The position numbers were made by a program, and so were the translations under genes. 64,000 bases of DNA. It comes from a virus (taxonomy: Duplodnaviria > Caudoviricetes). Location of the stretch: positions 128,001-192,000 of the IMG/VR virus record IMGVR_UViG_3300043434_000734; one strand, 5' to 3'. Position 1 is the first letter of the stretch. Each line of letters starts with the position of its first letter. Positions 14,536 to 24,970 of the stretch are shown in pieces. The notes beneath the pieces are model-generated. The model ran no database searches, had not been told where the DNA came from, and worked only from the letters and a program-made list of their open reading frames with translations.

Positions 14536-15318
14536 ATGAGTAATTTTAAACATCTTACCGAATTGGAAATCCAACAAATGACATTTGATTGGAGATATAG
14601 AGGTTTCACAGTTTTGGAACTTTTAACCGAAGAAGAATGTGATGAAATAAATGATGAATTGGAAGGATTACGTCAAGCACGTATCGGTACGACTACCGAA
14701 GACGGTAAAGCTTGGGGTGAGTGGGACCCATTCGCATATCCACACAAACTATCTGATAAATTAGCAAAATTATACGTTCACCCTAAACTTATTGAGGCTT
14801 GTGAGTTTTTGATGGAAGGTGAAATCGTAGGTATGCAAAGTTGGGCATATTTTAAACCACCTGGACAATTGGGTAGAGATCAACACCAAAACGCATTTTA
14901 TACTGGATGTAAACATAATGAAATTATCAATACCGCGTTAGCTTTAGATAATCACGACGAGGGTAATGGTGCGGTTTGGAACTATGAGGGTTCACACAGA
15001 TTACCGACATTACCTATTGAGGTGGATGAAGAAAGAACGAAAACGAATCCATCGTTTTGGAGAAATGAAAGAGGTAAACCTTGTATTATGCCCGAAGGAC
15101 ACGATTTCCGTAAAGTGGAAGGTATTTTGAAAAAAGGACAAGTCGTTTTACTTCACTCACACTGTGTACACGGTTCCGAAGCTAACAATTCAAATAGAAT
15201 GAGAAGAAACTATTTGGGTGGATTTTTAAAGAAAGGGGCTTATTACAATCAAGGAAGTCATATGAAACGTGAACCAATTGACGTTTATGAATTAAGAGAT
15301 AAACATTGGGGGAAATAA
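14536..15318 (+). CDS. Phytanoyl-CoA dioxygenase (PhyH)-family 2OG-Fe(II) enzyme
   Basis: YFKPPG, HQN, ALALD, NGAV..YEGSH, LLHSHCVHGS..N.S.R.RR. Confidence 0.85.
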   Translation: MSNFKHLTELEIQQMTFDWRYRGFTVLELLTEEECDEINDELEGLRQARIGTTTEDGKAWGEWDPFAYPHKLSDKLAKLYVHPKLIEACEFLMEGEIVGMQSWAYFKPPGQLGRDQHQNAFYTGCKHNEIINTALALDNHDEGNGAVWNYEGSHRLPTLPIEVDEERTKTNPSFWRNERGKPCIMPEGHDFRKVEGILKKGQVVLLHSHCVHGSEANNSNRMRRNYLGGFLKKGAYYNQGSHMKREPIDVYELRDKHWGK

Positions 15319-15321
15319 ACT

Positions 15322-15708
15322 ATGAAAAAACCAAATGTCATAAACGTTCACGAATGTCCTGAATGTAAAGTACCCAAAGGATGGGGTGAAGAAATTATTA
15401 TTTGCAATCACGAATTATATTGTGGTAAATTAATGTGTTTCAAAAAGGGTGCAATGTTTTCAATGCACTACCATATGATTAAAGATGAGACTTGGTACGT
15501 AAACGAGGGTGAATTTTTATATCGATGGATTGATACTGAGACAGCAGTGGTAAACGAACAACATTTAAAAGTAGGTGATGTTGTGAGACAACTACCAGGA
15601 CAACCTCATCAATTAGAGGCATTAACTGACGGTGTGGTTTTTGAAGTTTCCACGGAACACTTTGATTCTGACTCATATAGAGTTTGGAAAGGAGATTCAC
15701 AAAAATAA
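15322..15708 (+). CDS. Cupin-domain protein (sugar-isomerase-like)
   Basis: PKGWG.E, FSMHYHMIKDETWYV, PGQPHQL, EVSTEHFDSDSYR. Confidence 0.8.
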   Translation: MKKPNVINVHECPECKVPKGWGEEIIICNHELYCGKLMCFKKGAMFSMHYHMIKDETWYVNEGEFLYRWIDTETAVVNEQHLKVGDVVRQLPGQPHQLEALTDGVVFEVSTEHFDSDSYRVWKGDSQK

Positions 15709-15738
15709 AATATATTTAACTTTTCTTGATTATATACA

Positions 15739-15756
15739 TATTTATATGTATCTTTG
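15739..15756 (+). promoter_or_regulatory. Overlapping TATTTATA motif and Bacteroidota -7 box (TATCTTTG) ahead of the tRNA island
   Basis: TATTTATA 15739-15746; TAnnTTTG 15749-15756. Confidence 0.65.
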
Positions 15757-15786
15757 TAAAAAGAAACAAACATTAATAAAAATTCA

Positions 15787-15885
15787 ATGAGACAATTTAC
15801 ACATACAATGTCGTTTACAATCTGTTCAAAATGGGCGGATGAAACTCGTATGTCCAATAGTCTCAGAGATATTAATCACGGTTAA
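15787..15885 (+). CDS. Putative leader peptide (32 aa, MRQFTHTMSFTICSKWADETRMSNSLRDINHG)
   Basis: Short ORF between promoter and terminator; not in the ORF track. Confidence 0.55.
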   Translation: MRQFTHTMSFTICSKWADETRMSNSLRDINHG

Positions 15886-15911
15886 ATGTAAGTTTAACTA
15901 ATAGAATTAAG

Positions 15912-15945
15912 AAACCCTGAGACTTCAAAATCTCAGGGTTTTTTG
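15912..15945 (+). terminator. Intrinsic terminator / attenuator directly before tRNA-Ala
   Basis: AAACCCTGAGA-cttcaaaa-TCTCAGGGTTT plus U-tract. Confidence 0.85.
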
Positions 15946-15950
15946 TTTAT

Positions 15951-16023
15951 GGGCCTGATGTCAACGGCAGACCATCTGATTTGCAATCAGAATGAATGGG
16001 TTCGATTCCCACAGCGTCCACCA
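15951..16023 (+). tRNA. trnA: tRNA-Ala(TGC), CCA encoded
   Basis: tctga-tttgcaa-tcaga; G3:U70; TTCGA loop; one bulge in the acceptor stem. Confidence 0.8.
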
Positions 16024-16026
16024 AAT

Positions 16027-16099
16027 TGGAATGTAGCTCAATGGTGAGAGCATCCGCCTGATACGCGGAAGGTTATAAGTTCGAGTCTTATCATTCCAA
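16027..16099 (+). tRNA. trnI: tRNA-Ile(GAT)
   Basis: tccgc-ctgatac-gcgga; full cloverleaf. Confidence 0.92.
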
Positions 16100-16104
16100 C
16101 ATTG

Positions 16105-16177
16105 GGAACTTTGGTATAGCCGGTGCGTACGTTGGACTGAAAATCCGAAGGAACAAGTTCGATTCTTGTAGGTTCCA
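16105..16177 (+). tRNA. trnF: tRNA-Phe(GAA)
   Basis: ttgga-ctgaaaa-tccga. Confidence 0.9.
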
Positions 16178-16240
16178 CAAATAAAGTAAAATTTGAACGA
16201 TAAAGTTAATCACTTTATTAAACAGAAATAACTTTATTAT

Positions 16241-16314
16241 GACCTCTTAGCTCAGTTGGTTAGAGCACCTCACTTTTAATGAGGGAGTCCCGCGTTCGAG
16301 TCGCGGAGGGGTCA
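16241..16314 (+). tRNA. trnK: tRNA-Lys(TTT)
   Basis: cctca-cttttaa-tgagg. Confidence 0.93.
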
Positions 16315-16319
16315 CACAC

Positions 16320-16392
16320 ACGGGTATGGTGAAAATGGTTATCATTTTAGTCTCCAAAACTAAAGTTCCTGATTCGAGTTCAGGTATCCGTG
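16320..16392 (+). tRNA. trnW: tRNA-Trp(CCA)
   Basis: ttagt-ctccaaa-actaa. Confidence 0.88.
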
Positions 16393-16453
16393 CAAATGTT
16401 CGATTTTTTTAGTCCGTTTCGAACTTTCGTGATATTTATAAATAAAGAACATT

Positions 16454-16993
16454 ATGAAAGAAGAAATATTAAAATTAAGAAATGAAGGTAAAACATTTAA
16501 CCAAATAAAAGAAATAATAAAATGTTCTAAATCTACAATTTCATATTATTGTAGTGAAGGGCAAAAAGAAAAAACAAAAATTAGAACTAAAAAGAGGAGA
16601 GAAAACATTATAATTGATAAATTAGAAAGATTTAAATATAGAAAATCTAAATCGAATAAAGAACGAATTAGAAAATTCAATAAAAGAGATAATCAAATGG
16701 ATGGATTAGTTAACAAAAAAATAGAAATTACATTCACATTTGAAGATGTTATCAAGAAGTTTGGTTATAGTACTGTTTGTTATCTTTCCGGAGAAAAAAT
16801 AAATTTAAATGAAAACACATACCATTTTGACCATATTTTACCATCAAGTAGAGGTGGTGATAACACATTAGAAAATTTAGGTGTTACACACGAAATTGTA
16901 AATAAAATGAAAGGGGACTTAACACCAAAGGAACTTATTCTTTGGTGTGAAAAAATTTTGAAATATAATGGATATGATGTAAATAAAATTTAA
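16454..16993 (+). CDS. HTH + HNH endonuclease (probable homing endonuclease) inside the tRNA array
   Basis: N-terminal HTH (GKTFNQIKEIIKCSKSTISYY); CYLSG..FDHILPSSRGGDNTLENL..VNKMKG; own TATTTATA at 16433. Confidence 0.85.
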   Translation: MKEEILKLRNEGKTFNQIKEIIKCSKSTISYYCSEGQKEKTKIRTKKRRENIIIDKLERFKYRKSKSNKERIRKFNKRDNQMDGLVNKKIEITFTFEDVIKKFGYSTVCYLSGEKINLNENTYHFDHILPSSRGGDNTLENLGVTHEIVNKMKGDLTPKELILWCEKILKYNGYDVNKI

Positions 16994-17039
16994 TATTATG
17001 AAAAAAGAATTCGATATGCATTAGTTAAACTAATCGCAT

Positions 17040-17243
17040 ATGACAAACAAAGAGTACAGAGTAAAGAGAATGAAACAATCACACGATTATTGTTTCATAT
17101 GTCAGAAGAGAAATGGAAGTTGGTATTATGATTGCTCCCCAACTTTTGTTCACGGAAGACACGGTAATGGGAAACCGATTGAATCTCATAAAAGAAGAGA
17201 GTATAGAAGTTGGAAGTACAACAGAAAAACTCAATGGAAGTAA
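17040..17243 (+). CDS. Small basic Cys/His-containing hypothetical protein
   Basis: ORF track; CFIC..C..H. Confidence 0.5.
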   Translation: MTNKEYRVKRMKQSHDYCFICQKRNGSWYYDCSPTFVHGRHGNGKPIESHKRREYRSWKYNRKTQWK

Positions 17244-17272
17244 TGTTTACTATTAACAGTAAACAGTAAACG

Positions 17273-17344
17273 GGTCTCTTGGTGTAACGGATAGCACGAA
17301 ACACTACGGATGTTTTAGTAAGGGTTCAAATCCTTTAGAGACCT
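17273..17344 (+). tRNA. trnR: tRNA-Arg(ACG)
   Basis: aaaca-ctacgga-tgttt. Confidence 0.88.
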
Positions 17345-17405
17345 CAATGTTCACAAATTTTTAATGTTCACGTTCCGTGAACAAACAAAAAAAGTGAACA
17401 AAAAA

Positions 17406-17476
17406 GTCAGGTTGGCCGAGCGGCTAGGTGAAGGTCTGCAAAACCTTTAAGATAGGTTCGACTCCTATACTTGACT
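17406..17476 (+). tRNA. trnC: tRNA-Cys(GCA)
   Basis: aaggt-ctgcaaa-acctt. Confidence 0.92.
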
Positions 17477-17481
17477 CTTAT

Positions 17482-17553
17482 GGTGTTTGAAGCTTTAAGG
17501 TGAAGCACGAGTTTGTGGAGCTCGGGAAGACGGTTCGATACCGTTCATACACC
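17482..17553 (+). tRNA. trnH: tRNA-His(GTG)
   Basis: cgagt-ttgtgga-gctcg; G-1:C73. Confidence 0.88.
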
Positions 17554-17558
17554 CATAT

Positions 17559-17629
17559 TGCGGGGAGGAAGGTTCCCGACCAGTCTCATAAGCTGTGTCT
17601 CCCGAGTTCGATTCTCGGCCCCGCAACCA
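17559..17629 (+). tRNA. trnM: tRNA-Met(CAT) with shortened D-arm, CCA encoded
   Basis: tgcgggg/ccccgca acceptor stem; ctcataa loop. Confidence 0.75.
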
Positions 17630-17680
17630 AAAAGTTTTAAAAATAATTTGAAATAATTTCGGATATTCGTATTTATTTCT

Positions 17681-17688
17681 TACATTTG
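17681..17688 (+). promoter_or_regulatory. Bacteroidota -7 promoter box
   Basis: TACATTTG. Confidence 0.6.
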
Positions 17689-17709
17689 TAAAACAATAAT
17701 GACAGAAAA

Positions 17710-17838
17710 ATGGCGAAAGCACCGAGAACATCGAAAAGAGTTGGTAAAGTGGCAAGTAAAGCATTAAGAAGTAAAAAAAGTAGCAAGACAACAAAAACTC
17801 TTGCGGGAAGTTCTTTGAGACAACGGAGAAAAAAGTAA
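17710..17838 (+). CDS. Small highly basic protein (42 aa, MAKAPRTSKRVGKVASKALRSKKSSKTTKTLAGSSLRQRRKK)
   Basis: Read directly from sequence; promoter upstream; not in the ORF track. Confidence 0.65.
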   Translation: MAKAPRTSKRVGKVASKALRSKKSSKTTKTLAGSSLRQRRKK

Positions 17839-17843
17839 AATAA

Positions 17844-17915
17844 GCCTCTTAAGCATTGCAGGCGATGCGCCAGATTTGTAATCTGGATAACTCGGTTCGA
17901 TTCCGGGCGGAGGCT
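17844..17915 (+). tRNA. trnT: tRNA-Thr(TGT)
   Basis: ccaga-tttgtaa-tctgg. Confidence 0.88.
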
Positions 17916-18376
17916 CAACAAGTGACGACTGTGGTGTAACCCCACGGTATATAAATCCCAAAGAACTGTCTTGATTCGCGATATCAGAGCAGTGAGGGTA
18001 GAGTTTACTATAAGCGGGGAGTAATTAACCCAATGCGAAAATGTAACCACCAAGTGTAGAGATATATTTGGTTATGATGTACAGAAGGGTACAAAAAACT
18101 TGTTAATTTATTAATTTAGATTCTGATAACTTATAACTAAAGTTTTACTTAAACAAAGGTTATGGAGCAATTTGAGAAATGTTGTTATCACTAAGAATGT
18201 AAATTAATAAAGTTTGATTACGTTAGGTATGTAGTTTAAAAAGAACAATGTCCTAATAGATGAAGGTGTGAGTAATCACCTTACTTAACGTAATTTAAAT
18301 TTAAAACTAACTCAACGAGGACTTTGTTAACCAGAGCAAGACTTGGATGGTGCAACTTAAGGTGAGTTAGAATTTT

Positions 18377-18448
18377 GGTCCTGTAGTTAATCGGCTATAA
18401 TATTGCCCTGTCACGGCAAAGTGCCGGGTTCGATTCCCGGTGGGACCG
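18377..18448 (+). tRNA. trnD: tRNA-Asp(GTC)
   Basis: ttgcc-ctgtcac-ggcaa. Confidence 0.92.
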
Positions 18449-18672
18449 CAATGAGTAAGAGATACTCAATAGTCTTTAATCCAAGACTCATTTAACAATG
18501 GATGGTGGTTTGTAGTATCAACCTTAACGACTGCATATTGGGAACAAGGATTGTGGACCTACTCTCCCCCAAGTATTAGGTTGACGTTTTAACAGAGGGA
18601 TGCCTCGCAGGTTTTTGAGACAGACAAAAAACCGAAGTAACTACTCATCAGGAATCTCAAGGTGGGGAAAAT

Positions 18673-18760
18673 GGAGAGATGGTAGAGTTGGTCTATTGCA
18701 CCTGACTTGAAATCAGGAGTACTCGTGAGGGTACCGTGGGTTCGAATCCTACTCTCTCCG
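18673..18760 (+). tRNA. trnS: tRNA-Ser(TGA) copy 1
   Basis: cctga-cttgaaa-tcagg; long variable arm; G73. Confidence 0.93.
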
Positions 18761-18876
18761 CTGTAGAGTTTGCCCGTGGTAACGGTCTGATAAGATACTT
18801 TCAGACTTCTCGCGTCAAAACCCAAAACACTGACCTACTGGTGCTTGGGCTAAATGTAGAAAAAAAACGGGATATT

Positions 18877-18964
18877 GGAGAGATGGCAGAGTTGGTCGAT
18901 TGCGTCAGACTTGAAATCTGAAGAACGGGAAACTGTTCCGTGGGTTCGAATCCTACTCTCTCCG
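18877..18964 (+). tRNA. trnS: tRNA-Ser(TGA) copy 2
   Basis: tcaga-cttgaaa-tctga; long variable arm; G73. Confidence 0.93.
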
Positions 18965-19004
18965 CGAACCAAAAGTCCAATGGGGAGGATCCACTACACG
19001 ATTA

Positions 19005-19204
19005 GCAATCGGAAGAGTAGATTAAGACTAAGGTTGCTTGACACTCCGGAAAGACGAGAAAACAATCAAGTAGAGTGGTGGTACACTCACTATGTATGCA
19101 TCGTAAGATGGACGCCTTCTTCCCGCAGAGCACATAGATATGTCGTTTAGTGATATGGAAGAACACGGGAACGATTTGTAGGTTCGAATCCTATCTTGAT
19201 TGCC
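19005..19204 (+). ncRNA. 200-nt RNA closed by a tRNA-like acceptor stem and T-arm
   Basis: GCAATCGG pairs with TTGATTGC; GTAGG-TTCGAAT-CCTAT; several internal hairpins. Confidence 0.55.
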
Positions 19205-19317
19205 TTTCCTTTCAGGGTAACGACCTGATAAATTTTGAGATACTAAAGTTGTAACACCAGGGACTCAACGAAAGAAAGTCGGAAACTAAACTTGACTGAT
19301 GGAAAGACATCAAATTT

Positions 19318-19447
19318 GGGAAGGTAGCAGAAATGGAAGATGCGTTATACGAAAGCTACGTATAAGACGCGATGACGGACACAAAAGTACAATGTGTTGA
19401 ACTAAAGATTACGCATCGTTATGGGTTCGATTCCCACTCCTGTCCCA
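19318..19447 (+). ncRNA. 130-nt tRNA-like RNA with non-canonical anticodon loop and giant variable arm
   Basis: GGGAAGG/CCTGTCCC, D-arm GCA-gaaatggaaga-TGC, TTATACG-aaagcta-CGTATAA, ATGGG-TTCGATT-CCCAC. Confidence 0.65.
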
Positions 19448-19648
19448 CAGGTCGTCTTTTTATATTGCTCAGTTTGTGGAGTTAACTTTAGAGACGTTAA
19501 ACTTAAAGTAATGAATCCAAGCCCTTTTAAAGTTGTGGTACAACTGGGTCCATTTCCTTACCGAAGGAGGTTTCCGGACCTAAAATAGAAGCCTCAAACG
19601 ACTGAAAAAAGTAGGGACATATGAGACTACCTAATCTCGTCCCGAAAT

Positions 19649-19720
19649 GGCCCTATCGACAAGCGGTTAAGTCACGTCCCTTTCACGGATGAGTCACGGG
19701 TTCGAATCCCGTTGGGGCTA
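19649..19720 (+). tRNA. trnE: tRNA-Glu(TTC)
   Basis: cgtcc-ctttcac-ggatg. Confidence 0.92.
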
Positions 19721-19735
19721 CTAAATGGTTTTACT

Positions 19736-19894
19736 ATGAAGAAGATTGTATTTTTATTGTTAGTAATGGTTACAATGAGTAGTTGTTTATATACAACATA
19801 TAGACGACCTTATTATCAACGATATCCGACTTATCAGAAACATTATCAACCAAATAAAAAATATAAACCTTACTTTAGACCAGGTCGTTGGTAA
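19736..19894 (+). CDS. Small Tyr/Pro/Arg-rich lipoprotein
   Basis: MKKIVFLLLVMVTMSSC lipobox; ATG at 19736. Confidence 0.65.
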   Translation: MKKIVFLLLVMVTMSSCLYTTYRRPYYQRYPTYQKHYQPNKKYKPYFRPGRW

Positions 19895-19948
19895 AAAATA
19901 TTTACTATTAAATTGAATTTTTATATATTTGTATATACTTATTAAGAA

Positions 19949-20053
19949 ATGAAGAACATAAATAACATATTGTCACTTAGTACTAGACCATTAAATAATG
20001 GTAACGGGTATGGTGTGCAACCCGTGAATTTATGTTCGGATACTCATATTTAG
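19949..20053 (+). CDS. Putative leader peptide (34 aa, MKNINNILSLSTRPLNNGNGYGVQPVNLCSDTHI)
   Basis: Between TATATTTG (19924-19931) and a terminator. Confidence 0.5.
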   Translation: MKNINNILSLSTRPLNNGNGYGVQPVNLCSDTHI

Positions 20054-20077
20054 AAATTTAATTAATTAAAATATAGA

Positions 20078-20111
20078 CCCGAACGACTTAAAAAATTGTT
20101 CGGGTTTTTTT
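20078..20111 (+). terminator. Intrinsic terminator / attenuator
   Basis: CCCGAAC..GTTCGGG plus T7. Confidence 0.8.
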
Positions 20112-20128
20112 ATGTTATTTTTTTTCTT

Positions 20129-20154
20129 TATATTTGAAATGTAGTTCTTTGACA
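20129..20154 (+). promoter_or_regulatory. Bacteroidota -7 box followed by boxA-like element
   Basis: TATATTTG 20129-20136; GTTCTTTGACA 20144-20154. Confidence 0.65.
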
Positions 20155-20169
20155 TTGTGGAAATGATTT

Positions 20170-20254
20170 GCTCGGGTGGTGTAATGGTAGCCACGAGGGA
20201 CTTAAAATCCCTTGGACAGAAACGTCCGTGCCGGTTCGAGTCCGGCCCCGAGTA
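20170..20254 (+). tRNA. trnL: tRNA-Leu(TAA)
   Basis: aggga-cttaaaa-tccct; long variable arm. Confidence 0.93.
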
Positions 20255-20369
20255 CAATGTAATGACTTAGAAATAAGTGACGGAACAGACGCTATGTATG
20301 AAATGGAAACGTTTGAAACATTTTAAAGATGTTGATTCGACACAAACCGTACAGACATTACATTAAATT

Positions 20370-20443
20370 GGTCCAATAGCTCAGCTGGATAGAGCAACTC
20401 TCTTCTAAAGAGTAGGTCTCAGGTTCGAATCCTGATTGGATCA
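20370..20443 (+). tRNA. trnR: tRNA-Arg(TCT)
   Basis: actct-cttctaa-agagt. Confidence 0.93.
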
Positions 20444-20588
20444 CGAAGATAATGGTTTTCACCACCTTACGGATGTCGACAATCCACGGTGGAATCTGAA
20501 AACAGCACCCTCTGCCGAGCGCTCGTAAAACTACGATTAAGCAGTTAAGATTGGAACGAGACGGGTATTCCAACATTATCTTTATTTT

Positions 20589-20661
20589 AGAGTAGTTGAC
20601 CAATCGGTAGGTCCCTTGCTTTGGGAGCAAGTGTGTGTAGGTTCGAGTCCTGTCTACTCTA
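20589..20661 (+). tRNA. trnP: tRNA-Pro(TGG)
   Basis: cttgc-tttggga-gcaag. Confidence 0.9.
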
Positions 20662-20668
20662 CAAAAAC

Positions 20669-20740
20669 GTTGGTATAGCTTAATGGTGAAGCATTCGGCT
20701 GTTAACCGAAAGACTGTAGGTTCGAGCCCTACTACCAACG
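20669..20740 (+). tRNA. trnN: tRNA-Asn(GTT)
   Basis: ttcgg-ctgttaa-ccgaa. Confidence 0.92.
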
Positions 20741-20747
20741 CAAAAAT

Positions 20748-20824
20748 ACCCGTATGGCGGAATTGGCATACGCGTCAGATTTAGGATCTGAATTTTGTAG
20801 GTTCGAGTCCTACTATGGGTACCA
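20748..20824 (+). tRNA. trnL: tRNA-Leu(TAG) lacking the long variable arm, CCA encoded
   Basis: tcaga-tttagga-tctga; 5-nt variable loop. Confidence 0.85.
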
Positions 20825-20869
20825 GGGATTGGTTGACACTAAACAACAAAACCAAAAGGAAGTGTAAAA

Positions 20870-20954
20870 TTGGAGGATGGGTGAGTGGCTAAAACCGGCA
20901 GACTGTAAATCTGCTCTCAGAACGGGTACGGGGGTTCGAATCCCTCTCCTCCAA
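20870..20954 (+). tRNA. trnY: tRNA-Tyr(GTA)
   Basis: gcaga-ctgtaaa-tctgc; long variable arm. Confidence 0.93.
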
Positions 20955-20968
20955 CAAAAACAAAAACT

Positions 20969-21616
20969 ATGGCAACATTAGAAACACAGTACAAGAATTA
21001 CTTAAAGTTGAATCCAGATTCAACATTCACATTTGAAGAATGGAAAGAAGATTTCGGTGGTAACGTGCTTAGACAAATGTCCGATATCTTAAAAGAAATC
21101 AAAACTCCTGAATATAAAGAAAGACGTATTAAGGAACACGAAGAACGTCTTAAAAATATTACAATGGATTATCAATTGGGACAATACGTTGGTGAGTACA
21201 TTGTAAGTCACAATCTTCCAACATTATCGACCGATATGATTCACTCTAATCGTGTGATTAAAGTGTCTGACGAAGAACAAACTGAATGTGAAAGATTGGA
21301 TGGTGAATATGTTAAATCATTGGAAGCCAATCAATGGAAAAATGGTGATAGTGAATTATTTGAAGCGTGGAAACAATATCGTAAGGTATTGGAAAAGAAA
21401 TATCTTCCACAAGTTTTAGAGTGTCATCTTAGTTTAATAAGAATTGATGACATAGTAAAATTTAAAGAAGGTTTATCTGATTGTCTTTGGAATTGTGATA
21501 TGTGTTCTTATGACATCAAAGAAGAAAACATCACAATTGAAAATGATTTACTTAACGGATTTACAATTATCAAATTTCAATATGATTCGAGTTGTAATGA
21601 TGAAATGAAAAAATAA
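20969..21616 (+). CDS. Hypothetical protein within the tRNA array
   Basis: 215-aa ORF with phage-like codon usage. Confidence 0.7.
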   Translation: MATLETQYKNYLKLNPDSTFTFEEWKEDFGGNVLRQMSDILKEIKTPEYKERRIKEHEERLKNITMDYQLGQYVGEYIVSHNLPTLSTDMIHSNRVIKVSDEEQTECERLDGEYVKSLEANQWKNGDSELFEAWKQYRKVLEKKYLPQVLECHLSLIRIDDIVKFKEGLSDCLWNCDMCSYDIKEENITIENDLLNGFTIIKFQYDSSCNDEMKK

Positions 21617-21667
21617 AATATCGTTTAAATATACGATATACGATTTTATCGTCTTAATAAACGATAT

Positions 21668-21741
21668 GGACTTGTAGCTCAGTAGGTTAGAGCAACTGAC
21701 TCATAATCAGTAGGTCCCTGGTTCGAGCCCAGGCTGGTCCA
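21668..21741 (+). tRNA. trnI: tRNA-CAT (probably Ile2/lysidine type)
   Basis: actga-ctcataa-tcagt; Ile2-like body. Confidence 0.8.
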
Positions 21742-21802
21742 CAAAGAGATTAGGATATTCCTTACCCGTCGCCTCGGGATGACATCGTCAGTCTCTTTAC
21801 AT

Positions 21803-21877
21803 AGAAGATTAGTTCAGTCGGTTCAGAGCATCTGTTTTACACACAGAAAGTCGGGGGTTCGAATCCCTCATCTTCTA
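21803..21877 (+). tRNA. trnV: tRNA-Val(TAC)
   Basis: tctgt-tttacac-acaga. Confidence 0.92.
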
Positions 21878-21946
21878 CAAAAAAATTGGGATTGGGTTAA
21901 TACTGATATGGAGGCAATTCCTGGTATTATCGCCGCCCAATTAAAT

Positions 21947-22022
21947 GCGAAAGTAGCTCAGTCGGTAGAGCACAACCTTGCCAAGGTTGGGGTCGCGAGT
22001 TCGAATCTCGTCTTTCGCTCCA
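21947..22022 (+). tRNA. trnG: tRNA-Gly(GCC), CCA encoded
   Basis: caacc-ttgccaa-ggttg. Confidence 0.95.
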
Positions 22023-22025
22023 TAT

Positions 22026-22098
22026 GCGAATATAGCTCAATTGGTAGAGCACTAGTTTTCCAAACTGGGGGTTGCAGGATCGTTCCCTGTTATTCGCT
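22026..22098 (+). tRNA. trnG: tRNA-Gly(TCC)
   Basis: ctagt-tttccaa-actgg; variant T-loop. Confidence 0.85.
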
Positions 22099-22192
22099 CA
22101 ACTCAAGTACCCATACCGCTAACGATGGGCTAAGTAAGATACAAATTCGTACCACATTATTGTGGAGGCGGGAAGTAGAATGCTTGAGACAC

Positions 22193-22263
22193 TGTCCTTT
22201 GGTGTAACGGTAACACAATCGTTTTTGGTGCGATTATTTTAGGTTCGAATCCTAAAGGGACAA
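22193..22263 (+). tRNA. trnQ: tRNA-Gln(TTG)
   Basis: atcgt-ttttggt-gcgat. Confidence 0.88.
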
Positions 22264-22278
22264 CTTAAATTTTTAAGT

Positions 22279-22509
22279 ATGAGTATTTTTGCAATTTACT
22301 ACGTAATATGTATTGCGTATTGTTTCTATCAATTAAATAAAAAATATAGAAACAGAGGTGTTGATTATGGAACATCACCAGAGTTAGATTCCATAATGGT
22401 TTTGGTTATGGCTTGGATTTTAGTGCCAATTGATGTGTCGATAACTTGGATACGAATGGTGAAAGAAGCAGAGGAGTCTAAAAGAAGACAAGAGAAACAA
22501 GTACTTTAA
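22279..22509 (+). CDS. Small two-TM membrane protein
   Basis: Two hydrophobic segments. Confidence 0.6.
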   Translation: MSIFAIYYVICIAYCFYQLNKKYRNRGVDYGTSPELDSIMVLVMAWILVPIDVSITWIRMVKEAEESKRRQEKQVL

Positions 22510-22570
22510 CTAGTGGGCCACGGTGGTAGGCCAAAAGAAAAATAGATGTTTTTCATCCACCAAATTTTAT

Positions 22571-22656
22571 AGAGAGTTACCCAAGTTGGTGAAGGGGCCT
22601 GTTTGCTAAACAGGTAGGATGTTAAAGTCGCAAGGGTTCGAGCCCCTTACTCTCTA
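22571..22656 (+). tRNA. trnS: tRNA-Ser(GCT)
   Basis: cctgt-ttgctaa-acagg; long variable arm. Confidence 0.9.
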
Positions 22657-22661
22657 CACAT

Positions 22662-22811
22662 TGTAGTGTGACGAAACTTGGCAGACGTGCCCTCCTGTCT
22701 CGGGGGTGTGGAACAAGAAATAGGTTAATAATATGGGGTAGACCACCAGCCGGCCGGCGAAGTGTTATTAACTGAATCTCCATTTAAGTGGTTCGAATCC
22801 CTTCACTACAG
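22662..22811 (+). ncRNA. 150-nt tRNA-like RNA with ~80-nt variable arm and pyrimidine-37 loop
   Basis: TGTAGTG/CACTACA+G; D-arm ACG-aaacttggcaga-CGT; CCCTC-ctgtctc-GGGGG; GTTAATAATAT/GTGTTATTAAC; GGTTCGAATCC. Confidence 0.7.
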
Positions 22812-22848
22812 CACTAATAAACCAATAATTATAATAAATGAAAAAGTA

Positions 22849-23310
22849 ATGAAAAAATTCAGAACTCTCCACGGAACCCCAATTCCAGATGTAATCAATT
22901 ACATTAGAGAGTATATTTCAACAAGAGAGGATGTGGAAATTCTCATAGGATCAGATTCACAATCATATTCAAACAGGAAAACTGTTTATGGTGTTGTTAT
23001 TGCCCTTTATACAAAAGGTAAGGGTGCACACGTATTATGTACACGTGAGACATTACCTATGGAATATAATGTGGCATCGAGATTACTTGGTGAAGTTTGG
23101 AAATCAATTGAGATTGCTGAATTTTTAAAAGAGAATGGTTTACCAAAACCTACTTGGATTGATATTGACTTAAATCCCGACCCAAAATACAAATCAAATA
23201 ATGTTCTTAGACAAGCAGTTGGTATGGTTGAGGGTATGGGTTATAAAGTAAGGTACAAACACGTAGGTGCGTTAATGACATATGCCGCAAATCATTTAGT
23301 TAGGTTATAA
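22849..23310 (+). CDS. YkuK/DUF458-like RNase H-fold protein
   Basis: ILIGSDSQ, YGVVIAL..KGKGAHV, RLLGEVWKS, IDIDLNPD, AANHL; ATG at 22849. Confidence 0.8.
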   Translation: MKKFRTLHGTPIPDVINYIREYISTREDVEILIGSDSQSYSNRKTVYGVVIALYTKGKGAHVLCTRETLPMEYNVASRLLGEVWKSIEIAEFLKENGLPKPTWIDIDLNPDPKYKSNNVLRQAVGMVEGMGYKVRYKHVGALMTYAANHLVRL

Positions 23311-23347
23311 TTTTGTTTTTTAAAATAATTCAATTACTTTTTATTAT

Positions 23348-23701
23348 ATGGTAAAACAACAAATTATAAATTTAACATATTCTTTAATGTTATTTTTACT
23401 CGGTTCGATAGGACATTGGTACATTATGTATTGGCAATTTAAAATGCCGAATTGGGTTAAGACCCCGTGGCCGTATTTGATATCAGTGGGTTGTACTTTT
23501 TTATGGATTACAGCATCCCATTATGGTGTTAAAGCATTCAACGGTGAAATGTGGAGTAATAGGTTTTTGTTCTTTGTAACAGGTATCATTATTGCGGCAA
23601 TGTTATATCCGTACCATTTCGGTCAACCATTTACAGTTAAAACGATGGTACAATTAATATTGGCATTTACCATAATATTAATTTCACTTTTTTGGAAATA
23701 G
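23348..23701 (+). CDS. Four-TM small membrane protein (SMR/EamA-like), paralogue of 62981-63319
   Basis: Shared AFNGEMWSNR / SFNGEIWPSR and PFTVKT / PLTLKT motifs. Confidence 0.6.
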   Translation: MVKQQIINLTYSLMLFLLGSIGHWYIMYWQFKMPNWVKTPWPYLISVGCTFLWITASHYGVKAFNGEMWSNRFLFFVTGIIIAAMLYPYHFGQPFTVKTMVQLILAFTIILISLFWK

Positions 23702-23752
23702 ATTTTTTTATTTGATTTTTATTTCTTATATTTTAATTATAAAGACAACAAT

Positions 23753-23980
23753 ATGAAATGTATTAAGGCAATTAAAGAAACTAAATCCTATTCATTAGGT
23801 GAAATTCGTAGAACTGATGACGTTGATGCTGACCAAAAAGTGGCTAGTGGTGTATGGACGTTTATTCCTAAATCAGAATGGAAAGTAAGTAAGAAAGGTA
23901 AAAAAGAAGAAGTGGAAATTACTCACGATATGGGTGGTTCTATTGAAGTAAAAAAAGAAAAGAAAAAAAATAAAAAATAA
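23753..23980 (+). CDS. Small Lys-rich hypothetical protein
   Basis: ORF track. Confidence 0.55.
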   Translation: MKCIKAIKETKSYSLGEIRRTDDVDADQKVASGVWTFIPKSEWKVSKKGKKEEVEITHDMGGSIEVKKEKKKNKK

Positions 23981-24015
23981 TTTAATTAATATTTTGTTTT
24001 TATAAAAAGTATTCG

Positions 24016-24052
24016 TACATTTGTAAAACAATAAGAGAAAAAGTTCTTTGAT
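24016..24052 (+). promoter_or_regulatory. Bacteroidota -7 box and boxA-like element
   Basis: TACATTTG 24016-24023; GTTCTTTGAT 24043-24052. Confidence 0.65.
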
Positions 24053-24060
24053 TTAAAAAT

Positions 24061-24870
24061 ATTGGCCGCCTATGGTCGATTAAAATAAACCACGAAAGTG
24101 GGATAAAGTGACGAGTCCTTGGTTGGGACAAGTTGCGGTTTCAGTAATGGAACTTGAGTAGGCAAGTGGAGTATCGTTGAACCTTAAGTACTGAGGGTAA
24201 CACTTTAGGGAAAGTGGTTTGATGACTGAGCAATCCGAGTTGTTTGGTTGAGGTGGGAACACCAATAAGAATAATCCATAGAGTTATTGTGAGAAATATG
24301 GTTATCCGACTATATGATTACGTGATTCAATATGATGGGAATCTTAAAACCGAAAGGTATGGTGAAGTACGAGTGGTGTCGTTATCATCCTTTATTAAAC
24401 TCTACCAAGGGTTTAGTTTTGAAGGGGTCCAAAAATATGGTAGCAGGGATGTTACAGAGAGTAGTTTAGTATCGAGTCGCTCAAAAGGTGGCTTGGCTAG
24501 GTGACGAACCACTACTTTCCAAATTCGGATAACTAAATTTTGTTAATTTTGGTTTAACAACTTAAAATCATACAAGAAAAAGTGTTCGTCAGTCGTTGTA
24601 GACAGGTGGCTACATAGTCGTGAGGGGTTCACGGCCACAAAGGGTCTCAAGCCCAATGTGATTTTTAAAAAAGTTCTCTAAACCCGCAAGGTTGAATCAG
24701 GGAGGCATCTTTGATGAGTAATGAGTATTAAAAGAGTATATAACGACTCAAGGATTGGTTAATCTAATTGACCGCCGCTGATTGGTACTACTCAAAAGGT
24801 AGTGGATATGGGAAGAATCAAATAATGTCCCTAAGTCAATCAAAAAATGGTGTAATCTCAGCCCTTTCTT
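24061..24870 (+). ncRNA. Large (~800 nt) structured ncRNA, GOLLD-like candidate
   Basis: G-rich, no credible ORF, many tetraloop hairpins (CCAC-GAAA-GTGG, ACC-GAAA-GGT, AGTCGC-TCAAAA-GGTGGCT, CTACT-CAAAA-GGTAG); own promoter and boxA; near the tRNA array. Confidence 0.6.
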
Positions 24871-24944
24871 TTTTCAATTTTGTGTAAAATTGAATGGTGG
24901 AATTAAGTACGATATTAAAAAACCGTGCGGCCCTCAACAAAATT

Positions 24945-24970
24945 AGTCAGGAGAAATTCTGACTTTTTTT
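24945..24970 (+). terminator. Intrinsic terminator
   Basis: AGTCAG-gagaaatt-CTGACT plus T-tract. Confidence 0.7.

What the first reader, a model, noticed from the sequence alone, without database searches (positions are those of the whole stretch)
15739..15950. Leader-peptide attenuator gating the tRNA array
Seen: a promoter (TATCTTTG), a 32-codon ORF (15787-15885), then a strong terminator (15912-15945) only 5 nt before tRNA-Ala, with no room for another promoter. AGTCTCAG (15859-15866) inside the ORF is the exact complement of CTGAGACT (15917-15924) in the terminator 5' arm. Known: this is the layout of ribosome-coupled attenuators. Inference: tRNA transcription is switched on by translation state, for example stalling when host tRNAs are depleted or cleaved. 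I know of no described phage tRNA operon controlled this way.
Basis: partly seen in the sequence, partly recalled or inferred. Interest (0 to 1): 0.8.

Follow-up and report, generated by a model that had tools for sequence, protein, structure and literature searches.

The report
Codon-matched leader-peptide attenuator before phage tRNAs
An uncultured giant freshwater phage puts its tRNA genes behind a tiny translated "test" gene, written in the codons those tRNAs read and wired to a switchable transcription stop, so it probably makes the tRNAs only when those codons are decoded slowly; I found no published account of such control for tRNA genes.

Summary
They are a Bacteroidota-type promoter, a 32-codon ORF, a strong intrinsic terminator 5 nt before the first tRNA, and an 8-nt ORF segment complementary to the terminator's 5' arm (chance about 0.5-1%).

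In 62 distinct relatives:
- The ORF is always intact and its indels are multiples of 3.
- The terminator keeps pairing through compensatory changes.
- The ORF segment pairs with the 5' arm in 93.5% of cells and changes with it.

A second cassette with the same layout but an unrelated stem sequence (19901-20113) precedes the second tRNA block.

The new result is that each leader is written in the codons read by the tRNAs behind it:
- 40 of 46 leader codons upstream of the antiterminator segment match their own block. None of 500,000 random partitions of the codon families reaches this.
- A relative with a different tRNA block has a correspondingly rewritten leader.
- The number of Thr codons follows the position of the tRNA-Thr gene.

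The best reading is a trp-type ribosome-mediated attenuator that senses decoding speed and tunes tRNA supply.

There are no expression data, and a likely extra promoter follows the second terminator. This scan has reported the same arrangement in other giant phages. I found no publication describing it.

The parts
15725..15756 (+). Promoter of cassette 1: -33-like CTTG (15725-28), a 20-nt spacer, and the -7 box TATCTTTG (15749-56). The predicted transcription start is about 15761.
   Evidence: This is the only CTTG-N18-22-TAnnTTTG match in the window. CTTTTCTTG...TAYMTTTG is conserved in the relatives. The Flavobacterium sigma-A -7 box is TAnnTTTG at -12 to -5 (PMC9723704).
15787..15885 (+). 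Leader ORF 1 (32 codons, MRQFTHTMSFTICSKWADETRMSNSLRDINHG). Codons 4-21 are all read by block-1 tRNAs.
   Evidence: The ORF is intact in 62 of 62 distinct relatives (29-34 codons), and every indel is a multiple of 3.
15788..15793 (+). Segment 0 (protector, like trp segment 1): UGAGAC in the start-codon region. It can pair with segment A.
   Evidence: 96.8% of cells are paired in 62 sequences. One column covaries (G-C 46, A-U 11, mismatch 5). It is used in the minimum-free-energy fold of the leader without the 3' arm.
15859..15866 (+). Segment A (antiterminator 5' strand, like trp segment 2): AGUCUCAG, inside codons 25-27.
   Evidence: It is the exact complement of 15917-24. 93.5% of cells are paired in register, against 9-52% when slid. 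Two columns show compensatory changes. It is the RNAalifold consensus helix when the 3' arm is left out.
15881..15898 (+). Hairpin H2, which holds the stop codon (15883-85). It forms the tip of the antiterminator structure.
   Evidence: A hairpin at this place is kept in nearly all variants although the sequences differ. The stop codon lies fully in a stem in 46 of 62, with mean z -2.05.
15912..15949 (+). Intrinsic terminator T1: 5' arm B (15912-22), loop, 3' arm C (15931-41), and the T-tract.
   Evidence: All cells are paired in 62 sequences, and two pairs are kept through changes on both sides in 17 and 22 sequences.
15951..16020 (+). First gated gene: a tRNA-Ala(UGC)-like gene with G3:U70 and a mismatched acceptor stem.
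   Evidence: Rfam tRNA 32 bits. It is conserved in more than 60 relatives. A canonical tRNA-Ala sits at the same place in L087, L094 and L099.
16027..19721 (+). Rest of tRNA block 1: Ile GAT, Phe GAA, Lys TTT, Trp CCA, Arg ACG, Cys GCA, His GTG, Met-like CAT (17559-17629), Thr TGT, Asp GTC, Ser TGA x2, Glu TTC.
   Evidence: The Met-like gene is found only at the lowered ARAGORN threshold. No strong + strand terminator lies inside the block.
19901..19931 (+). Promoter of cassette 2 (TTTACT, N17, then -7 box TATATTTG at 19924-31).
19949..20053 (+). Leader ORF 2 (34 codons, MKNINNILSLSTRPLNNGNGYGVQPVNLCSDTHI). Segment 0 is at 19954-63 and segment A (UGUUCGG) at 20033-39.
   Evidence: It is conserved in about 32 distinct relatives. 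The 0:A pairing covaries. Codon matching to block 2 is.
20075..20113 (+). Intrinsic terminator T2 (12-bp stem; the 5' arm holds ACCCGAACGA and the 3' arm UUGUUCGGGU) with its T-tract.
20170..22657 (+). tRNA block 2: Leu TAA, Arg TCT, Pro TGG, Asn GTT, Leu TAG, Tyr GTA, Met/Ile2 CAT, Val TAC, Gly GCC, Gly TCC, Gln TTG, Ser GCT.

Best explanation
This is a ribosome-mediated (leader-peptide) transcription attenuator of the trp/his/ilv type, but it controls a block of phage tRNA genes.

How it is proposed to work:
1. Host RNA polymerase starts at the Bacteroidota-type promoter and transcribes a 32-codon leader.
2. The part of the leader before segment A is written almost entirely in codons read by the tRNAs encoded just downstream.
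3. Four segments can pair in alternative ways: 0:A (protector), A:B (antiterminator, tipped by a hairpin that holds the stop codon) and B:C (terminator).
4. If the ribosome moves quickly through the leader, it covers A and melts the stop-codon hairpin before B appears. B:C then forms and transcription stops 5 nt before the first tRNA.
5. If the ribosome lags on any of the sampled codons, because the matching charged tRNAs are scarce, A pairs with B. The polymerase then reads through and makes the tRNA block.
6. With no translation at all, 0:A may sequester A and allow termination.

A second cassette (19901-20113) does the same for the second block. Together the two leaders divide the codon families between the two blocks. 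The result would be a self-tuning supply of tRNA.

Shown: the anatomy, its conservation, the covariation, and the codon matching.
Inferred: that the leader is translated, the direction of the switch, and the natural trigger.
For: Anatomy in the window.

The leader is coding:
- It is intact in 62 of 62 distinct relatives, with conserved start and stop.
- All indels in the ORF are multiples of 3. Indels of 1-2 nt occur only downstream of the stop.

Terminator: 100% of cells are paired, and two pairs are kept through changes on both sides in 17 and 22 sequences.

Antiterminator A:B:
- 93.5% of cells are paired in register, against 9-52% when slid.
- Two columns switch A-U to G-C, with G-U intermediates.
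- It is the RNAalifold consensus helix once the 3' arm is removed.
- The codon that covers the covarying bases varies as an amino acid (R, G, D, E, S, K, V). The constraint is therefore on the RNA.

Independent replicate: cassette 2 has a different stem (CCGAAC/GUUCGG), and the ORF again carries the matching A segment at the same distance from its stop. It also has a 10-bp 0:A helix, and it folds through the same three states.

Codon matching:
- Before segment A, leader 1 has 18 codons read by block-1 tRNAs and 5 read by block-2 tRNAs. This becomes 20 and 3 once the Met-like tRNA is counted.
- Leader 2 has 3 and 22. Fisher p = 5.7e-6.
- Each leader covers 12 of 12 codon families of its own block (random expectation 7e-5 and 0.0017).
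- 40 of 46 codons are own-block, and none of 500,000 random partitions of the families reaches that.
- Arg (CGT versus AGA) and Ser (TCR versus AGT) split as the anticodons predict.

Natural experiments:
- In L081 the homologous leader reads MRQLTNMLSFSNQPNWNEQP..., and its terminator is followed by Pro, Asn, Trp, Leu, Gln, Thr, Asp and Ser tRNAs (Fisher p = 0.0033).
- Thr codon counts in the two leaders follow the block that holds tRNA-Thr (15 loci, Mann-Whitney p = 0.0012).

Only these two strong + strand terminators lie inside the tRNA array.

Leader-peptide attenuation has been suggested in Flavobacterium, which also lacks Shine-Dalgarno sites and uses the TAnnTTTG box (PMC9723704).
Against: - No transcript ends, read-through or ribosome data are available. 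The public RNA runs are held only as contigs.
- The leaders have no runs of one regulatory codon, so how strongly a single slow codon would switch the structure is unknown.
- The terminator is much more stable than the antiterminator (-49.9 versus -37.3 kcal/mol for the whole leader). Read-through would therefore have to be kinetic, as in trp.
- The phylogeny-aware test of A:B covariation is underpowered. Only 2 independent pairs lie on well-supported branches. A, B and C are about 80 nt apart and could move together by recombination.
- The 0:A pairing in cassette 1 has only one covarying column and 5 mismatches.
- Some codons do not fit. Codons 2-3 of leader 1 (AGA, CAA) belong to block 2. 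The L109/L125 leaders have Val codons but no Val tRNA in the visible block.
- Promoter-like boxes inside or behind the cassettes could feed part of the arrays without the attenuators. These are TACATTTG at 17681, and TATATTTG at 20129 followed by a boxA-like motif, exact in 19 of 33 relatives.
- Transcription-translation coupling in the unknown host is not established.
- A phage polymerase could behave differently at these signals.
Confidence: 0.72

Rival explanations
1. The ORF is an ordinary small phage gene with its own promoter and terminator. The tRNAs are made by leaky read-through or from other promoters. The complement to the terminator arm and the codon match have no regulatory role.
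For: The N-terminal two thirds of the peptide are well conserved. The terminator is strong and looks like a normal gene end. Promoter-like boxes exist behind T2 and inside block 1.
Against: - The ORF segment changes together with the terminator arm, while the encoded residue varies freely.
- A second cassette with an unrelated stem repeats the same geometry.
- The leader codons match the downstream tRNAs far beyond chance, and they follow changes in the tRNA block.
- Second and third codon positions vary about equally (13 and 15 variable sites against 6 at position 1). This is not the pattern of a protein kept for its fold.
- The peptide matches no Pfam family.
Confidence: 0.12
2. The leader is an untranslated RNA switch that senses something directly, for example uncharged tRNA as a T-box does, or a protein factor. 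The open frame is incidental.
For: Alternative terminator and antiterminator helices with covariation are also what a riboswitch or T-box would show. The leader body is structured.
Against: - The frame is open in 62 of 62 and about 32 of 33 variants, with in-frame indels only.
- Composition matches at the level of codons and anticodons.
- No Rfam family, T-box included, matches 15709-15950 even at E up to 1.
- The leader is only about 150 nt and has no conserved ligand-pocket-like core.
Confidence: 0.05
3. The leader is translated and coupled to termination, but with the opposite or a different logic. For example, it may simply link tRNA transcription to overall ribosome availability, or stabilise and process the leader mRNA, and not sense the particular tRNAs of the block.
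For: The 0:A helix occludes the start-codon region in the minimum-free-energy folds of both cassettes. Initiation itself could therefore be the regulated step. RNase P cleavage at the abutting tRNA would leave the hairpin as a protective 3' end (inference).
Against: A general sensor would not need block-specific codons, yet the leaders divide the codon families and follow changes in the tRNA block.
Confidence: 0.08

Closest known systems
Multivalent leader-peptide attenuators of enterobacterial amino-acid operons (ilvGMEDA/ilvBN, thr; also trpL, hisL, leuL, pheL). Named from established knowledge.
   Same: - A short translated leader lies upstream of an intrinsic terminator.
- The protector, antiterminator and terminator helices are mutually exclusive, and the antiterminator strand lies in the ORF end.
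- The regulatory codons match the product being controlled.
- More than one amino acid is sensed, as in the ilv and thr leaders.
   Different: - The controlled genes are tRNA genes, not biosynthetic enzymes.
- The system belongs to a phage of a Bacteroidota-type host.
- The leader samples about 12 codon families once or a few times each, and has no runs of one to three kinds.
- Two cassettes divide the codon table between them.
- There is no sequence similarity to any Rfam leader family.
pheM leader attenuator of pheST (phenylalanyl-tRNA synthetase). Named from established knowledge.
   Same: Leader-peptide attenuation is applied to a component of the translation apparatus, and it senses charged tRNA through ribosome speed.
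   Different: It controls a synthetase and senses only Phe. Here the product is the tRNA itself, which gives a direct feedback loop.
T-box riboswitches
   Same: They sense tRNA status and switch between a terminator and an antiterminator upstream of translation-related genes.
   Different: A T-box binds uncharged tRNA directly and needs no ORF. Here a conserved ORF with codon matching is present, and no T-box model matches.
Codon-matched leader cassettes before tRNA arrays in other giant phages, reported earlier by this scan (e1-5381190, e1-5326844, e1-3450868 and others)
   Same: The logic is the same: promoter, mini-ORF written in the codons of the block, a terminator/antiterminator switch, then tRNAs, in uncultured giant phages with Bacteroidota-type signals.
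   Different: Those are unpublished AI notes on other genomes, most with four or five cassettes. I did not test them. Here I found two cassettes, plus the L081 variant and the Thr relocation as natural experiments.

Membership tests
Leader-peptide (ribosome-mediated) transcription attenuator | A short translated ORF in the 5' leader of the controlled genes | tested here: met
   32 codons in the window. The ORF is intact in 62 of 62 distinct relatives, start and stop are conserved, and indels are multiples of 3. Translation itself is inferred, not measured.
Leader-peptide (ribosome-mediated) transcription attenuator | An intrinsic terminator between the leader ORF and the controlled genes | tested here: met
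   An 11-bp hairpin with a U-tract ends 5 nt before the first tRNA. 100% of cells are paired, with compensatory changes.
Leader-peptide (ribosome-mediated) transcription attenuator | An antiterminator helix that excludes the terminator, with its 5' strand in or near the ORF end so that a ribosome can mask it | tested here: met
   A:B (15859-66 with 15917-24) has 93.5% of cells paired, with two covarying columns. It is the consensus helix without the 3' arm. A lies in codons 25-27, 17-24 nt before the stop. It is replicated in cassette 2.
Leader-peptide (ribosome-mediated) transcription attenuator | A protector (1:2-type) helix that sequesters the antiterminator strand when the leader is not translated | tested here: inconclusive
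   0:A has 96.8% of cells paired but only one covarying column and 5 mismatches in cassette 1. Cassette 2 has a 10-bp helix with compensatory changes. RNAalifold prefers A:B over 0:A.
Leader-peptide (ribosome-mediated) transcription attenuator | Regulatory codons in the leader that correspond to the controlled product | tested here: met
   40 of 46 pre-A codons are read by tRNAs of their own block, and none of 500,000 random partitions reaches this. 12 of 12 families are covered in each leader. The L081 variant and the Thr relocation agree.
Leader-peptide (ribosome-mediated) transcription attenuator | Read-through that depends on leader translation and on supply of the cognate charged tRNA | not testable with these tools
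   This needs reporter, Term-seq or Ribo-seq work. The public RNA runs are contigs only.
Described Rfam leader and riboswitch families (Trp_leader, His_leader, Bacteroid-trp, T-box and others) | A match to the family's covariance model | tested here: not met
   cmscan of 15000-28500 at E up to 1 gives no hit between 15709 and 15950.
rrn-type boxA antitermination leader | A boxA-like element (GCUCUUUAACAA type, recalled from memory) in the transcribed leader of stable-RNA genes | tested here: inconclusive
   There is none in cassette 1. GTTCTTTGACAT lies at 20144-55 behind T2, and GTTCTTTAACAT at 27422-33 before the tmRNA. Each lies 7 nt after a TAnnTTTG box. No binding or function was tested.

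The most novel reading that the evidence does not exclude
Giant phages of Bacteroidota-type hosts run an on-demand tRNA supply. Each tRNA block is switched on by its own codon-matched leader peptide when ribosomes decode that block's codons slowly. The phage can thereby detect and repair a mismatch, a depletion or a defence-driven cleavage of host tRNAs, block by block. This would be the first case of leader-peptide attenuation that controls tRNA genes themselves.
Probability: 0.6. Interest if true: 0.85.

Novelty: new variant of a known kind. Interest (0 to 1): 0.8.

Why it matters
Leader-peptide attenuation is a textbook mechanism, but it is known for amino-acid biosynthesis and a synthetase operon, not for tRNA genes. 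How phages regulate their tRNA arrays is largely unknown.

A leader that samples exactly the codons served by the genes it gates would be a direct feedback sensor of decoding capacity. It would explain three things:
- why these arrays are split into blocks;
- why tiny conserved ORFs sit in front of them;
- how a phage could respond to codon-usage mismatch, host shut-off or anticodon-nuclease defences.

It also offers a simple, testable design: a promoter, about 30 codons and a terminator.

The conserved alignment, two paralogous cassettes and natural variants give ready-made mutants for experiments.

Tried and rejected
- **GenBank phages:** a megablast search found no close relative, and blastn found only tRNA matches.
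- **Relatives through the upstream cupin gene:** this gave 80 loci, but almost none has the tRNA array next to it. The PhyH and cupin genes are an insertion peculiar to this window.
- **Exact search with the hairpin:** it found two relatives, but it biases the hairpin to be invariant. I replaced it with searches anchored on the neighbouring 183-aa gene and on the tRNA-Ala-like element.
- **Whole genome:** none is held for this window.
- **Bacteroidota promoter consensus:** on its own it is not enriched in the window.
- **Tree-based test of A/B covariation:** only 2 independent pairs lie on supported branches, so it gives no significance.
- **Stop-codon hairpin:** my first register was off by one, as the slid control showed. 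I re-did the test by folding each sequence.
- **Public runs:** the stretch occurs in freshwater DNA metagenomes. The RNA or possibly-RNA runs are held as contigs with small shares. One contig of a relative spans 15817-16021 in libraries whose RNA nature is a guess, so nothing can be said about transcript ends or read-through.
- **Resemblance to TnaC:** I recalled from memory a similarity between the peptide core (ICSKW.D) and TnaC. I did not test it and do not use it.
- **Literature:** five searches found no paper on attenuator control of phage tRNA genes.

Full report
**Context.** The window is about 31% G+C. It carries 24 tRNA genes called by ARAGORN, a tmRNA and a GOLLD RNA. No whole genome is held for it, and GenBank phages hold no close relative. 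Its relatives are uncultured IMG/VR and metagenome contigs of up to 476 kb. The stretch itself is held by freshwater and lake metagenome runs. Promoter signals are of the Bacteroidota type (TAnnTTTG), and the genes lack Shine-Dalgarno sites. This fits what is described for Flavobacterium (PMC9723704).

**Observation.**
- TATCTTTG at 15749-56, with CTTG 20 nt upstream;
- a 32-codon ORF at 15787-15885;
- an 11-bp hairpin at 15912-41 followed by a T-tract;
- a tRNA-Ala(UGC)-like gene from 15951 (Rfam 32 bits, missed by ARAGORN);
- AGTCTCAG at 15859-66, the exact complement of CTGAGACT at 15917-24.

An 8-nt complement of this kind arises in 0.5% of shuffles and in 1% of real windows of the same size.

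**Relatives.** Searches anchored outside the element gave 62 distinct versions of the leader. The anchors were the divergent 183-aa gene and the tRNA-Ala-like gene. In most relatives found through the 183-aa gene, the leader lies directly next to that divergent gene. The PhyH and cupin genes at 14536-15708 are therefore an insertion in this window, and the conserved CTTTTCTTG-N20-TAYMTTTG must be the leader's own promoter.

**The ORF is a coding unit.**
- It is open in 62 of 62 versions (29-34 codons), with conserved start and stop.
- The three kinds of indel inside it are 3, 6 and 3 nt long. Indels of 1-2 nt occur only after the stop.
- Second and third codon positions vary about equally. This fits a leader better than a folded protein.

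**Alternative structures.**
- The terminator is paired in every cell of the alignment. Two pairs are kept through changes on both sides.
- The ORF segment A pairs with the terminator's 5' arm B in 93.5% of cells, against 9-52% in slid registers.
- The two variable pairs switch between A-U and G-C through G-U intermediates. Meanwhile the codon that holds these bases encodes R, G, D, E, S, K or V.
- With the 3' arm removed, RNAalifold returns A:B as the consensus helix.
- Between A and B, a hairpin holding the stop codon is kept in nearly all variants despite very different sequences. It forms the tip of the antiterminator.
- The start-codon region (UGAGAC) can pair with A. This 0:A helix is used in the minimum-free-energy fold of the untranslated leader. 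Its comparative support in cassette 1 is thin.
- The terminator is the most stable state (-49.9 against -37.3 kcal/mol), as in the trp leader (from established knowledge).
- A tree-based test of the A/B covariation lacked power, and linked recombination cannot be excluded.

**A second cassette.**
- It has a promoter, a 34-codon ORF at 19949-20053, and a terminator at 20075-20107 with a different stem.
- Its ORF carries UGUUCGG at 20033-39, complementary to its own 5' arm, at the same distance from the stop.
- It has a 10-bp 0:A helix (19954-63 with 20028-37). It folds through the same three states.
- It is conserved in about 32 distinct relatives, and its 0:A pairing shows compensatory changes.
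- These two are the only strong + strand terminators inside the tRNA array.
- The two leader families share C-terminal tails (DTHI, DINKG, ILG).

**Codon matching (the main new result).** Block 1, behind T1, encodes tRNAs for Ala, Ile, Phe, Lys, Trp, Arg(ACG), Cys, His, Met-like, Thr, Asp, Ser(TGA) and Glu. Block 2, behind T2, encodes Leu(TAA), Arg(TCT), Pro, Asn, Leu(TAG), Tyr, Met/Ile2(CAT), Val, Gly(GCC), Gly(TCC), Gln and Ser(GCT).
- Before segment A, leader 1 has 18 block-1 and 5 block-2 codons, and leader 2 has 3 and 22 (Fisher p = 5.7e-6). Two of the five block-2 codons in leader 1 are Met codons, which the Met-like tRNA of block 1 may serve.
- Each leader contains all 12 codon families of its own block (chance 7e-5 and 0.0017).
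- Arg and Ser codons split as the anticodons predict.
- None of 500,000 random partitions of the codon families gives as good a match as the observed 40 of 46.

**Natural experiments.**
- In L081 the homologous leader has changed by point substitutions to MRQLTNMLSFSNQPNWNEQP.... Its terminator is followed by Pro, Asn, Trp, Leu, Gln, Thr, Asp and Ser tRNAs (p = 0.0033).
- tRNA-Thr lies in block 1 in some relatives and in block 2 in others. The Thr codon counts of the two leaders follow it (p = 0.0012, not corrected for relatedness).
- I defined these tests after seeing the pattern, but the effects are large and they agree with each other.

**Mechanism.** The anatomy is that of a classical four-segment attenuator. 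A ribosome that reaches codons 25-27 and the stop-codon hairpin before B is made prevents A:B, so B:C terminates. A ribosome that lags on the sampled codons leaves A free, so the polymerase reads into the tRNAs. The direction of the switch, the role of 0:A and any pausing are inferred.

**Caveats.**
- No expression data are available.
- There are no runs of regulatory codons.
- Some codons do not fit.
- Possible extra promoters lie at 17681 and, behind T2, at 20129, where a boxA-like motif follows. The same box-and-motif pair precedes the tmRNA. Gating may therefore be partial, especially for block 2. For cassette 1 in this window, the 5-nt gap leaves no room for a promoter.

**Comparison and novelty.** The closest known systems are the multivalent leader-peptide attenuators (ilv, thr) and the pheM-pheST attenuator. 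The present element meets the defining sequence features of that kind but matches no Rfam family. It differs in three ways: its target is the tRNA genes themselves, its host is a giant phage, and its leader samples many codon families. Literature searches found no description. This scan has reported the same logic in other giant phages. I reached the codon-matching result here before reading those notes, and I did not test them.

Noticed in passing
window 24457-24864 (promoter-like 23993-24023, terminator 24945-24964): A full-length GOLLD RNA (Rfam 314 bits) lies just downstream of the tRNA array. It sits between a -33/-7 promoter-like site and a terminator.
   Followed up: partly
window 27372-27433 and 20075-20155: The same signal order occurs twice: a strong terminator, then a TAnnTTTG box, then 7 nt later GTTCTTT(G/A)ACAT. 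That motif resembles an rrn boxA (from memory). One copy precedes the tmRNA (27436) and the other precedes tRNA-Leu, the first gene of block 2 (20170). It suggests a dedicated promoter and leader for stable RNAs.
   Followed up: partly
window 17559-17629: A tRNA-Met(CAT)-like gene with a reduced D-arm and an encoded CCA abuts tRNA-His. ARAGORN finds it only at a lowered threshold, and Rfam gives only a weak tmRNA-model hit. Relatives have a regular tRNA-Met after His.
   Followed up: partly
window 15951-16020: The first gene of the array is an odd tRNA-Ala(UGC). It has G3:U70 but two acceptor-stem mismatches and a 4-bp T-stem. It is nearly invariant in more than 60 relatives. A few relatives (L087, L094, L099) have a canonical tRNA-Ala at the same place.
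   Followed up: partly
window 14536-15708: PhyH-family dioxygenase and cupin genes are inserted between the divergent 183-aa gene and the leader in this phage only. The cupin gene occurs in at least 176 IMG/VR loci, mostly away from tRNA arrays.
   Followed up: partly
window 16454-16993: An HNH endonuclease ORF with an N-terminal helix-turn-helix sits inside tRNA block 1. It is probably a mobile homing element.
   Followed up: no
window 17681-17838: TACATTTGTAAAACAATAA is the same -7 box and downstream sequence as in front of GOLLD (24016). Here it precedes a 42-codon, very basic ORF that ends 5 nt before tRNA-Thr.
   Followed up: no
L089, L110, L112, L123, L128, L154, L167, L182, L185 (between terminator T1 and the tRNA-Ala-like gene): An insert of 50-80 nt containing an inverted repeat (TTTGGC...GCCAAA type) separates the terminator from the first tRNA in nine relatives. 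It may be a small mobile element. It holds no consensus -7 box.
   Followed up: no
leader ORFs of cassettes 1 and 2 in the window and relatives: The two leader families share interchangeable C-terminal tails and stop-codon hairpin modules (…DTHI, …DINKG, …ILG). This suggests exchange of the 3' module between cassettes.
   Followed up: no
window 22762-23310: An RNaseH-like (PF04308) protein gene lies directly after the last tRNA of the array.
   Followed up: no
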